From: Octopus sinensis
Lineage: Eukaryota
Assembly (NCBI RefSeq): GCF_006345805.1
Contig: NC_043005.1
Coordinates: 107,880,001 to 107,944,000 of the forward strand
Direction: 5' to 3'
Length of the DNA stretch: 64,000 nucleotides
Shown: piece by piece, positions 2,932 to 49,630 of the stretch
How positions within the stretch are numbered: the stretch's first letter is position 1
Layout: every line of letters starts with the position of its first letter
The notes under the pieces: model-generated
Seen by the model: only the letters and a program-made list of their open reading frames with translations
Database searches by the model: none
What the model was told of the DNA's origin: nothing
Made by a program: the position numbers and the translations under genes

Positions 2932-3359
2932 TTAAATAAGAACCCATTTCTGTATGGAAGCAAGGAGTTTGATTTCGTCTACTGTATGCTTCAACACACT
3001 TTATGACATATCCTTGTCTGAACTCATTATTGTTAATTATATGTCTGTGTGTGTTAATTATAGAGATAATTTGCAGAGTTTATAAAATGCAGATAAAATC
3101 TGGAATCCAAGTTAGCTTAGCCATAGGTAAACTGTGTGAGTATAATCGAATCCATTACATTGTGTTACAAAATTATTTTTGTCTTCAGTCAGTAAGTGAT
3201 ATTTCCTACTTGCTTCTATCTAGAGATCAAAGGAAATGACTACTGTTCCCTTCAAGCTTGGCTTTTGTAACCAAGACATCAATATTTTGAAACTAACCAA
3301 TTTTCCATTCCATTTCAGACAGATTCAGCGCTGAGTTACTGAATCAGAATTATCATAAT

Positions 3360-45911: not shown

Positions 45912-46163
45912 TAAATGTGCCCTTTTAAAGCCTAGCCAGGTTCATGGGCCCGGTTTCCCGGTTTCTATGGCGTATGTGTTCTCCAGCTGGATGGGATGCC
46001 AGTCCATCACAGCGTTACTCATTTTTGCCAGCTGAGTGGACTGGAGCAACGTGAAATGAAGTGTTTTGCTCATGAACACAATGCATCGCCCAGTCCAGGA
46101 ATCGAAACCACAAGCTTACAATCATGATGCTGACACCCTAAACACTAAGTCACGCGCCTCCAC
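45912..46163 (-). mobile_element. SINE family D
   Basis: Closely similar to 55870-56124(-). Has a tRNA head with GGTTTCGATTCC and is flanked by ATTATATCTT repeats. Confidence 0.85.
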
Positions 46164-46239
46164 ATTATATCTTCTTACAAACTATTATATCTTACACAAG
46201 GTAAAATAAACTTAATAATGTAGTCCTTTATATATTGTA

Positions 46240-46545
46240 GTGAAGGCACATGGCTCAGTGGTTAGAGCATCGAGCTTACAATCATGAGGTTGTGAGTTCG
46301 GTTCCTGGACCAGGCTGTGTGTTGTGTTCTTGAGCATGACAGTTTATTTCATGTTGCTCCAGTTCACTCAGCTGTAGAAATGAGTTGCGACATCACTGGT
46401 GCCAAGCTGTATCAGCCTTTGACTTTCCCTTGGATAACATCATTGGTGTGGAGAAGGGAGGCCGGTATGCATGGGCGACTGCTGGTCTTCCATAAACAAT
46501 CTTGCCCGAACTTGTATCTCAGAGGGTAACTTTCTAAGTGCAAAT
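46240..46545 (+). mobile_element. SINE family E
   Basis: A box TGGCTCAGTGG and B box GAGTTCGGTTCC. Body shared with family D, different tail. Confidence 0.8.
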
Positions 46546-47885
46546 ACAAGTGGCATTCTATGGTTTGTTCTGAAGAGAAATTATCATTCTGTATAAATGG
46601 TAAACTAGAAGAAACCCTGCATTTGTCTTCAAGTGATTGTATTTACTCAGTTACATTACCTACAAAGAATAGCAGCCAAATATCCTGTCCCCTCAAATTG
46701 CATCATACCTTTTAAAGAAACAACACACTGGACAATGTATTCCTATAATATAAAAATGATGGGGATGTTCATGGTAGGAACGTATTTGATAATAGATTTG
46801 CTCAAGCAAAGTTGTCCTGTGACTAAACAACTATTCCTTTCTTTGACTACAGAAGCCATTTGAATTAACAAAAAAGAATAGTAGATTAACAAGGAAGAAT
46901 AAAATGTGACTTGAAAGATTTGATTAGAATTTTTTTTTACATAACGTTTTTTAGTGGCATTTTATGTGCATTAAGATATGTGCTGACAGAGATGAATGGG
47001 AATGCAAAAGGTACAAAAGGAGACAAATATATATTTTGGTAAAATAGCCTTCAAGTTGCAATAAAACTACAAAATTTAGAATCAAAACAAGAAGAAAATT
47101 ATTCTCTCTACAGAATATGAGTGACAGGTAAAAAGACCGTCAATAAATAGACTTGTTTTCTCCCCCTTTATGGTGTTTTTTTAGAATCAGTATTTTTATG
47201 GTTTACCTATCTGGCCATGAATACTGCTATAAATCCAACTGACACTGCAAAAATGCCATACCATTATGAGAATATTACATTTACCAAAAACAGATAGCTC
47301 AGCTTACATGCATAAAGCATAAATAAAATATATAACTTAATATCAAATATGAAATATCAGTTTCAGTAACAGTTTCCAAATAGATTCTCCATTCAGGATA
47401 TGTATAGCAGGATAAAGGCTAAAAGATGTCCCAAAAGTTATAAGTGTTAGGGATTTAAGGAGTAAAACCTCAATTCTGATTTTGAGGAGTAGACTGGCCA
47501 GAAAATGGTTAAACTATGCAACAGTGTGAAAAGTATAATGCAGTATCACTAGCATAAACATGAATGGGTTCTTAAATACCCCTAGAAACGTTTAAGCAAA
47601 TGAAATTACACCTGTAATGGAAAGGGAAAGAAAAATCAGTGACAATTAATATAAAAAAAGACAAGGGAGATAAATCTGCAATTTTCTGAACTACATTTCG
47701 ATCTGATTCAGCAACATTTAGGTTTACACATACAGACTTTAGAATGACGGAGATGTACTTGCATAGCAAGTAATTTGATCTGAGATCGTGTGCTGAAACA
47801 AAAACAATTGCAGCGTGGAAGGTGTTTGTAAGCCATTTAAGAAACACACAAAAGCCGTTCAATACACTTCAACATTTGAGTTTAA

Positions 47886-47935
47886 TTTGTCAAAATATTT
47901 TCGTCGCTAAAATCCGCGACCTGTTCACTGACAAA
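47886..47935 (-). ncRNA. Putative minimal type-I hammerhead ribozyme, G3-C8 core variant (mirror copy)
   Basis: Minus strand: TTTGTCA GTGAACA GGTCGC-GGATTTTA-GCGAC GAAA ATAT T T TGACAAA. Confidence 0.6.
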
Positions 47936-47957
47936 ATTCCGTGCTGTATCACGGATT

Positions 47958-48008
47958 TTTGTCAGTGAACAGCTCGCGGTCTTAAAGCGACGAAAATATT
48001 TTGACAAA
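47958..48008 (+). ncRNA. Putative minimal type-I hammerhead ribozyme, G3-C8 core variant
   Basis: TTTGTCA (helix I) GTGAACA (core) GCTCGC-GGTCTTAAA-GCGAC (helix II) GAAA ATAT T T TGACAAA (helix I'). Confidence 0.6.
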
Positions 48009-48722
48009 TCAAACTTAAATGTTGAAGTGAATTGAACGGCTTTTGTGTGTTTCTTAAATGGCTTACTAACACCTTCCACGCTGCAATTAACTTTAGAATG
48101 ACATGGAATATATTGGCACTGGCAATCACATATATCCATGCCAAATCCTGAATTCTCATGATGTTTTGGGGAAAAGACACAGAATGATTCAAAGTGTTTT
48201 CTGCTTGTTTATTTGCTAACTAGTCTTTTACTTTCCAGGACTTACAAAGAATAAGTCCTGGGTTTGATTTGCTCAACTAAAGGCAGTGCTCCAGCATGGC
48301 CACTGTCAAATGACTGAAACAAGTAAAATAGTAAAAGAGTAATGAGTATGCGACACACCAGTAATTATCAGATTCCCATGAGAAAAGAACTGTGGCAGTA
48401 ATTTTTAACTCTACATGTTCAAAATCAGACTAATGGGCCACTGTTTGTTCAAAAGGTATGTCAAGATAAGGTCCTTCGATAATTTACCAGTAACACCAGT
48501 TGTCTTAAGACTTGGGATGCTTGTACTTCGTGGTCCTTGTTGCCTCACTCAGCTGGTGAATCACAACTTCTGGGAGATAAGTATCAATGAAAATATCATT
48601 GATAATGATACTGAAGACCAATGAGTGGTTTGAAGTATATAGCAAATATGACATCCTATTAGCATTGTCCACTTTGGTGGCCTCCAAAGTTTTCTTCATG
48701 AAGTTTTATCATGATGCTTTAA

Positions 48723-48950
48723 GGTGGCGAGCTGGCAGAAATGTTGGCATACCGGACGAAATGCTTAGCGGTATTTCACCTGCCGGGCATTCTGAGTTCA
48801 AATTCTGCCGAGGTCGACTTTGTCTTTCATCCTTTCAGGGTCGATTAAGTAAGTACCAGTTACGCACTGGGGTCGATACAATCGACTTAATCCGTTTGTC
48901 TGTCCTTGTTTGTCCCCTCTATGTTTAGCCCCTTGTAGGCAATAATGAAA
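48723..48950 (+). mobile_element. SINE family B monomer
   Basis: Colinear with 24787-25024. Confidence 0.88.
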
Positions 48951-49212
48951 CAAGAAACATTAGCGATAATTTAATTATGAATGAACTACCTAAAATGACA
49001 GATGCAAAAGACTTTGATGATAGTATTGGTGGTGGTGGAGGTGGTGGTGGTGGTGGTGGTGGTGGCAATAGTGGTTCTACTACTACTATTGGTGCTGGTG
49101 GTTGTAGGAATGATGGTTCTTTAGTGATTTTTGGAGAAGTGGTACAATAGTTGTGGTAGTCATGCAGTACCTGTGCTGGTGATGGTTTCGCAGTTATAAA
49201 GGTTGTGATATC

Positions 49213-49630
49213 GGGAGCTGGCAGAATCGTTAGCACACCGGGCGAAATGCTTAATGGTATTTTGTCTGCTGTTACGTTCTGAGGTTCTGAGTTCAAATTC
49301 CGCCGAGGTCGACTTTACCTTTCAGCCTTCTGGGGTCGATTAAATAAGTACCAGTTACTGGGGTCGATGTAATCAACTTAATCCATTTGTCTGTCCTTGT
49401 TTGTTCCCTCTATGTATTTAGGCCCTTGTGGGTAGTAAAGAAATAGGTATTTTGTCTGCTGTTACGTTCTGAGGTTCTGAGTTCAAATTCTGCTGAGGTC
49501 GACTTTGCCTTTCATCCTTTCAGAGTCAATTAAATAAGTACCAGTTACGCTCTGGGGTTAATGTAATTGACTTAATCCCTTTGTCCTTGCTTGTACCCTG
49601 TTTATTCCCCTGTGGGCAAGAAAGAAACAG
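49213..49630 (+). mobile_element. SINE family B tandem dimer
   Basis: Junction AAAGAAATAG|GTATTTTGTCTGCTG at ~49447. Both units share a GTTCTGAG duplication. Confidence 0.88.

What the first reader, a model, noticed from the sequence alone, without database searches (positions are those of the whole stretch)
47736..48102. Palindromic insertion with twin hammerhead ribozyme folds carrying a compensatory G3-C8 core
Seen: a 341-bp insertion between perfect 13-bp direct repeats, made of 57 unique bp plus a ~283-bp palindrome. Each arm, on opposite strands, has helix I TTTGTCA/TGACAAA, core GUGAACA, helix II G(N)UCGC/GCGAC with one bulged base, GAAA, a self-complementary AAUAUU helix III and a UU cleavage site. 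Within the motif the two arms differ only at the bulged base and the helix II loop. Known: the canonical core is C3UGANG8A with a tertiary C3-G8 Watson-Crick pair that tolerates compensatory swaps. Penelope-like elements carry minimal, dimer-requiring type-I hammerheads and often leave inverted-repeat insertions with long TSDs. Inference: a non-coding PLE-derived or retrozyme-like mobile family with a non-canonical core that CUGANGA motif searches would miss. Read-through would give a ~140-bp hairpin that masks the ribozyme and could feed ADAR or Dicer.
Basis: partly seen in the sequence, partly recalled or inferred. Interest (0 to 1): 0.82.

Follow-up and report, generated by a model that had tools for sequence, protein, structure and literature searches.

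The report
Penelope retrotransposon palindrome with swapped hammerhead
This 341-base palindrome is two short, head-to-head copies of the front end of a protein-coding Penelope-type jumping gene, and each copy carries a hammerhead-like RNA fold whose key core pair is swapped (G-C instead of C-G), which would be a new natural ribozyme variant if it cuts, something not yet shown.

Summary
Observation confirmed: 341-bp insertion, 13-bp direct repeats, 57-bp unique end, two hammerhead (HHR) folds with core GUGAACA. It is not a stand-alone non-coding family. Both arms are the 5' end of an autonomous Penelope-like element (PLE; RT, Cys linker, GIY-YIG) of this genome and run into its first codons. 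The core 21-mer occurs 4,982 times. Arms have two fixed 3' ends 60 nt apart (the PLE 'tail'); 22 of 22 classed head-to-head pairs join one long and one short arm. Their 5' ends pile up about 58 nt upstream of the predicted cut, often behind an extra G (39 of 51, versus 0 of 30 in read-through copies), so the template is likely capped and uncleaved. Junctions vary and 33 of 332 pairs mix subfamilies, so the palindromes are likely made anew at each insertion. Two sister PLE families carry U3-A8 (25 of 25) and C3-G8 (29 of 29) at the same site, so G3-C8 covaries naturally. The 'bulged base' is a private mutation; the family has an extra G after A9, typical in position for PLE hammerheads. Cleavage is untested. 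Verdict: new core variant of a known kind.

The parts
47736..47748 (+). Left target-site duplication (11 bp certain, last 2 nt shared with the element's long 3' end)
47749..47950 (-). Long arm: copy of the PLE 5' end from about transcript position +2 to the downstream ('long') 3' end
   Evidence: matches L061 and L113
47749..47805 (-). PLE 'tail': the 57 unique bp between the two fixed 3' ends; lies inside the ORF
47750..47836 (-). First 29 codons of the PLE ORF (MAYKHLPRCNCF...), matching the start of the long ORF in L113
47886..47935 (-). Minimal type-I hammerhead fold, G3-C8 core, extra G after A9, 8-nt loop II, palindromic helix III, U17; predicted cut between 47893 and 47892
47936..47957 (.). 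Head-to-head junction of the two arms, 1-nt overlap at 47950
47950..48089 (+). Short arm: copy of the PLE 5' end ending at the upstream ('short') 3' end; loop II of another subfamily than the long arm
47958..48008 (+). Second hammerhead fold, G3 at 47965 and C8 at 47970, 9-nt loop II, private G>C change at 47973; predicted cut after 48001
48090..48102 (+). Right target-site duplication

Best explanation
The insertion is a head-to-head pair of short copies of the 5' end of an autonomous Penelope-like retrotransposon, likely written by that element's reverse transcriptase onto both strands of one target site, and each arm carries the element's hammerhead-like fold with a swapped G3-C8 core that is predicted, not shown, to cut slowly as a dimer. 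Shown: the arms are the element's pLTR plus first codons; two fixed 3' ends 60 nt apart; one long plus one short arm per pair; TSD of about 11-13 bp; AT-rich targets; 5' ends upstream of the ribozyme. Inferred mechanism: the GIY-YIG domain makes a staggered cut of about 11-12 nt; two RT subunits prime at the two internal start sites, here about 147-150 and 207 nt from the RNA 5' end; both run off at the capped 5' end of an uncleaved sense RNA (adding a C opposite the cap); the two cDNA ends are joined by 0-few nt of microhomology. Most pairs come from one RNA or one subfamily, a minority from two. The palindrome is then a dead-end product made anew each time, and in double-stranded read-through the ribozyme would be masked.
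For: Same arms flank a GIY-YIG ORF in L061 (PF01541, E 3.2e-5). 25 of the 30 best endonuclease loci carry the arm sequence on the ORF strand behind the ORF. In L113 the arm runs directly into a long ORF with an RT YVDD motif, and a second pLTR 4.36 kb downstream stops at the short end. 74 distinct arms on C1: 40 long, 27 short, 7 other 3' ends; 22 of 22 head-to-head pairs with both ends classed are long+short, 4 more had one unclassed end. 85 arms chosen by a 20-mer downstream of the HHR: 41 end 48-66 nt upstream of the cut, 5 within 9 nt of it, 9 continue upstream, 30 end elsewhere. Base before AGATG is G in 39 of 51 truncated arms and 0 of 30 read-through arms; 27 of 37 after removing cases the partner arm explains. 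Exact pairs by loop II type: 244 A/A, 55 B/B, 33 mixed, with varied centres. TSD found in 20 of 23 non-microsatellite insertions, 63 of 86 in AT-rich repeats. Sister families with 3-8 pair U-A (25 of 25) and C-G (29 of 29), different helix sequences, tails of 60 and 57 nt and homologous N-termini. Frangieh 2024 (PMC11167929): both strands cut and extended, two internal RT starts define the tail, uncleaved RNA is the main substrate, C3G/G8C partly rescues cleavage.
Against: No cleavage, transcript end or cap was observed directly. Within-family conservation of the HHR is not above flanks (3 of 35 versus 10 of 67 columns with shared variants, p=0.53). The extra base after A9 is G, while the published PLE consensus has H there (PMC4209133 supplement S3) and A10-to-G was strongly detrimental in a viroid hammerhead (as reviewed in PMC3705267). 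The AAUAUU duplex is worth only -0.2 kcal/mol and the double-hammerhead (-27.2) is not the minimum-energy dimer (-31.3). The youngest copies of sister family F3 have C at position 9 (28 of 29), so these elements can spread with a damaged core. Mixed pairs (33) are far fewer than random pairing would give (about 112). Three pairs (L037, L043, L047) share junction and flanks and are probably one event. The sequence before the start site also looks like a 3' splice site.
Confidence: 0.8

Rival explanations
1. The palindrome arises by self-priming or fold-back from a single (possibly antisense) template, as proposed for head-to-head PLE repeats, and the endonuclease resolves it at the short end.
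For: Explains the strict long+short rule and why about 90% of pairs share a subfamily. Proposed in PMC3846280 (Discussion read). Many centres are near-perfect hairpins.
Against: 33 exact mixed-subfamily pairs, in both polarities, cannot be copied from one arm. Either arm can be the one complete at the 5' end. The extra G marks the 5' end of a sense RNA, and in two loci both arms carry it (L202, L225).
Confidence: 0.12
2. The 340-bp palindrome is itself a non-autonomous mobile unit (MITE-like or retrozyme-like) copied as a whole.
For: 1,827 candidates; the 40 scored best matches share both ends at 90-95% identity. Some centres recur.
Against: Centres vary widely; arms of all lengths up to a full ORF share the same two outer ends; no tandem HHR-bearing monomers as in retrozymes among these loci; a read-through RNA would fold into a 128-bp hairpin (-210 kcal/mol) that hides the RT start sites.
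Confidence: 0.05
3. The element is as described, but the G3-C8 motif is a catalytically dead or nearly dead hammerhead descendant, kept as a structural, promoter or protein-binding signal in the 5' UTR.
For: Few 5' ends at the cut site (5 of 85); three departures from the consensus together (G3-C8, extra G, U17); weak helix III; C9 in the youngest F3 copies; no reads ending at the cut site were found for the anole element (PMC11167929).
Against: Both partners of the 3-8 pair changed in two lineages while Watson-Crick pairing was kept, which is hard to explain without the tertiary pair; G3-C8 persists in older subfamilies (L320, 89% endonuclease identity; L334); only 19 doubly changed cores, 1 of them C3-G8, against 4,982 exact ones.
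Confidence: 0.4

Closest known systems
Minimal type-I hammerheads of metazoan PLEs (Cervera and De la Pena 2014, PMC4209133)
   Same: In the pLTR; short palindromic helix III; unpaired base between A9 and G10.1; G10.1-C11.1; U17 common; opposite-strand pairs 100-700 bp apart were noted; U3-A8 variant known.
   Different: G3-C8 pair; extra base is G, not H; helix I is 7 bp. None of the aligned HHRs in the text of supplement Fig. S3 begins GUGA.
EN+ PLEs with a CX2-5CxxC linker (Neptune and Nematis clades; Craig 2021, PMC8557442)
   Same: RT then Cys linker (CQSNCAVC) then GIY-YIG; partial tandems; inverted 5'-truncated copy; tail at one end; (TA)n bias.
   Different: Tail is 57-60 nt, not 30-40; very short double-arm insertions are abundant. 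Clade not tested by a tree.
Poseidon of Anolis (PAc; Frangieh 2024, PMC11167929)
   Same: Two internal RT starts inside the ORF start define the tail; AT-rich targets; uncleaved RNA used as template.
   Different: PAc has a C3-G8 core (G3-C8 only as an engineered partial rescue) and its ORF starts within helix II; here the ATG lies 57 nt behind the cut.
Non-LTR retrozymes (bioRxiv 10.64898/2026.07.22.740005)
   Same: Type-I HHR, related to PLE pLTRs.
   Different: Retrozymes are head-to-tail tandem non-coding repeats; this is a head-to-head pair that includes coding sequence of an autonomous element.

Membership tests
Penelope-like element (EN+) | Single ORF with RT and C-terminal GIY-YIG endonuclease linked to the repeat | tested here: met
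   PF01541 on the isolated C-terminus; 1,042-aa open frame with YVDD (the whole protein gave no Pfam hit); relatives named RT-domain protein
Penelope-like element (EN+) | pLTR in partial tandem that includes the ORF start | tested here: met
   L113
Penelope-like element (EN+) | Inverted 5'-truncated copy and tail at one end only | tested here: met
Penelope-like element (EN+) | TSD and AT-rich or microsatellite targets | tested here: met
Penelope-like element (EN+) | Spliceosomal intron in the pLTR (some families) | tested here: inconclusive
   Branch-point-like and YAG motif before helix I; no GT..AG joint in contigs
Neptune clade | CX2-5CxxC linker before GIY-YIG | tested here: met
   shared with Nematis per PMC8557442
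Neptune clade | RT phylogeny with named references | not tested
   No named clade references among the hits
Hammerhead ribozyme (PLE minimal type I) | Helices I and II, U4 G5 A6, A9, G12 A13 A14, A15.1-U16.1, H17 | tested here: met
Hammerhead ribozyme (PLE minimal type I) | Canonical C3 and G8 letters | tested here: not met
   G3 in 48 of 50, C8 in 44 of 50 arms
Hammerhead ribozyme (PLE minimal type I) | Watson-Crick 3-8 pair | tested here: met
   G-C, U-A, C-G in three sister families
Hammerhead ribozyme (PLE minimal type I) | Self-cleavage at N17 | not testable with these tools
   Needs an assay; genomic 5' ends do not pile at the site
Non-LTR retrozyme | Head-to-tail tandem non-coding monomers each with an HHR | tested here: not met
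MITE / DNA transposon | Symmetric terminal inverted repeats and short fixed TSD | tested here: not met
   Ends differ by the 57-60 nt tail; TSD about 11-13 bp with ragged ends

The most novel reading that the evidence does not exclude
An active natural G3-C8 hammerhead, the core swap so far found here only as an engineered rescue, amplified to thousands of copies by a PLE, with sister families completing a natural C-G, U-A, G-C series; and genome-scale evidence that PLE head-to-head repeats come from twin internal priming on capped, uncleaved sense RNA and not from antisense self-priming.
Probability: 0.4. Interest if true: 0.68.

Novelty: new variant of a known kind. Interest (0 to 1): 0.5.

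Why it matters
A natural G3-C8 core would extend the known core variants (C3-G8, U3-A8) and means that CUGANGA descriptors and Rfam miss whole families; some PLEs thought to lack hammerheads may carry one. The three sister families give a ready natural series for testing the 3-8 pair. The thousands of short double-arm insertions are a fossil record of PLE integration: the long+short rule, the likely cap G and mixed-subfamily arms bear on the open question of how PLE inverted repeats and tails form, and suggest the ribozyme does not make the template. The single window copy is an ordinary dead insertion.

Tried and rejected
Rfam scan: only weak hairpin matches, no hammerhead. Idea of a fixed-end palindromic unit with a flipping centre: came from the biased top-30 set, dropped after unbiased loci showed variable junctions. 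Idea that AGATG marks only a 3' splice site: no shared exon sequence beyond one G in truncated arms; not excluded. Within-family conservation test: not significant. Search for compensatory subfamilies inside the family: 19 doubly changed cores, no clear signal. Search with a distant relative for further families returned mostly the same three. Sequencing runs: no RNA holder listed; runs only guessed as RNA and kept as contigs; laying four gave no splice joint and nothing on ends or editing, so no evidence either way on expression. PDB search: no hit. Empty site not tested. Lunse 2017 (about PLE hammerhead dimers) and Przybilski and Hammann 2007 could not be read.

Full report
1. Observation. 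The insertion spans 47749-48089 between two copies of a 13-mer. It is 57 unique bp plus a 283-bp imperfect palindrome. Each arm holds, facing outward, helix I (7 bp), GUGAACA, one more base, helix II (5 bp), GAA, AAUAUU, U, helix I. The long arm folds as drawn (z -3.9), the short arm less well (z -1.1). The strict descriptor matched 0 of 20,000 shuffles. Rfam gave no hammerhead match. The coordinates and the predicted cut after 48001 are right.

2. It is a large repeat family. The whole insertion has 1,827 candidates in the own genome, 40 scored, 90-95% identical apart from itself. An exact 21-mer of the core occurs 4,982 times, the reversed control 0 times; a 20-mer in the ORF start occurs 6,192 times. 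The family reads GTGAACA-G-GTCGC, so the 'bulge' in the right arm is a private change. The host is likely an octopus: the best named protein relative is from Octopus vulgaris (58%).

3. The parent is an autonomous PLE. At L061 the same long and short arms lie 2.5 kb apart and enclose a GIY-YIG ORF end. Of the 30 best endonuclease loci, 25 carry the arm on the ORF strand behind the ORF. L099 holds a 1,042-aa open frame with RT motifs, a CX3CxxC linker and GIY-YIG; Pfam found the nuclease only on the isolated C-terminus. In L113 the arm continues into the ORF (ATG at 3157), the ORF is split into two frames in this copy, and a second pLTR 4.36 kb further on stops at the short end in (TA)n. The window's long arm therefore includes the first 29 codons. 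The linker points to Neptune or Nematis (PMC8557442, passages); no tree was made.

4. How the palindrome is likely made. Among 74 distinct arms in the first 15.7 Mb of C1, 3' ends are bimodal: 40 long, 27 short, 7 other. Of 26 head-to-head pairs, 22 had both ends classed and all 22 are long+short; three of them look like one duplicated event. Among 85 arms chosen by a motif outside the ribozyme, 41 end 48-66 nt upstream of the predicted cut, 18 at -47 to -10, 5 within 9 nt of the cut, 12 downstream, and 9 continue upstream. Arms that stop at AGATG have G in front in 39 of 51 cases; arms that continue have C or T in 30 of 30. Without the cases the partner arm explains, 27 of 37 still have G, with no shared sequence further up (earlier subset). 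An untemplated G as a mark of a copied cap is from my own knowledge, not from a paper read here. D. virilis Penelope has an internal TATA-less promoter in its pLTR (PMC2377424, passages). Centres vary widely, and exact pairs by loop II type are 244 A/A, 55 B/B and 33 mixed; the window copy is mixed. Random pairing would give about 112 mixed, so most pairs use one RNA or one subfamily. Of 86 short double-arm insertions, 63 lie in AT-rich repeats; 20 of the other 23 have a TSD, whose allowed length range includes 12 in 19 and 11 in 18. Frangieh 2024 (PMC11167929, main text parts 1-2 of 4) showed in vitro that a PLE protein cuts and extends both strands from two internal RNA sites that define the tail, on unprocessed RNA. 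I infer that here both sites, about 147-150 and 207 nt from the RNA 5' end, were primed and the two cDNAs ran off at the cap and were joined. Arkhipova 2013 (PMC3846280, passages and Discussion) proposed self-priming on an antisense template and left the question open; mixed arms and the extra G speak against that here, while the 90% same-subfamily pairs are compatible with it.

5. The ribozyme. G3 is present in 48 and C8 in 44 of 50 arms spanning the motif; subfamily variation sits mainly in loop II, but the motif is not better conserved than its flanks (p=0.53). Only 19 sites have both positions changed, one to C3-G8. Older ORF-linked copies L320 and L334 keep G3-C8; L315 has G8. Two sister families (endonucleases about 50% identical) have a hammerhead fold at the equivalent place, with tails of 60 and 57 nt and homologous N-termini: F2 has U3-A8 in 25 of 25 and F3 C3-G8 in 29 of 29 copies, with different helix I, II and III sequences (these loci were fetched by similarity over stretches that include the core). 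This is natural covariation of the tertiary pair. Against strong activity: the extra base is G, where the published consensus has H (PMC4209133 supplement file 2, parts 1-2 of 3) and G was detrimental in CChMVd (PMC3705267, passage); helix III is very weak and the double hammerhead is not the lowest-energy dimer; 28 of 29 F3 copies have C9; genomic templates were mostly uncut.

6. Comparison and novelty. PLE minimal hammerheads, the extra base, U3-A8 and opposite-strand pairs are published (PMC4209133, main text parts 1-2 of 4 and supplement; PMC6765202, passages and part 2 of section 11; PMC3088659, passages, natural U3-A8). G3-C8 appeared in my searches only as an engineered variant (PMC11167929; PMC3884650, passages). 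These searches depend on wording; Lunse 2017 and Przybilski 2007 could not be read, figures are not held, and one supplement file of PMC4209133 was not searchable, so a published natural G3-C8 is not excluded. A 2026 repeat annotation of O. vulgaris lists Penelope families and has no mention of hammerhead or ribozyme in its main text (PMC13282606, passages). Seen and not relied on: bioRxiv 10.64898/2026.07.22.740005 (part 1 of 5), PMC6155905 and PMC10085705 (passages). Two earlier AI notes report G3-C8 cores with an extra base near PLE-like RTs in other genomes; they are unchecked leads.

7. Read-through hairpin. The palindrome folds into about 128 pairs at -210 kcal/mol, which would mask both ribozymes. 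Whether this locus is transcribed, edited or diced was not shown.

8. Verdict. Real; a product of a known class of element; the G3-C8 core is a new variant of a known kind as far as I could check, with activity open (about 55%). The insertion record adds testable evidence on PLE integration. Interest 0.5.

Noticed in passing
L110:6500-6760; L144-L163; L321: Sister PLE family F3 is very young (40 scored copies 99-100% identical, many inverted pairs, a 1,044-aa open frame) yet has C at hammerhead position 9; an older copy (L323) has the fully canonical core with C17.
   Followed up: partly
L108:3470-3700; L124-L143: Sister PLE family F2 carries a U3-A8 hammerhead fold with a 3-bp helix I and the same extra G.
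   Followed up: partly
L061:3743-3765 (-); L113:3022-3046: Directly before the likely start site lies a branch-point-like motif, pyrimidine tract and YAG, kept as CAG or TAG between subfamilies; it may be a 3' splice site, an initiator, or both.
   Followed up: partly
L049, L153, L154, L111: Arms of different PLE families sit next to or inside each other's (TA)n flanks, suggesting shared target preference.
   Followed up: no
L037, L043, L047, L063, L123: Several insertions share one junction and similar flanks, so one insertion was probably carried along inside another repeat or duplication.
   Followed up: no
window 48729-49500: Two to three copies of a short interspersed repeat (82-96% alike) beside the insertion; from memory it resembles an octopus SINE.
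   Followed up: no
window 46074-46329: Inverted pair of short repeats forming a long hairpin (spurious Rfam microRNA match, E 5e-9, far below the gathering score).
   Followed up: no
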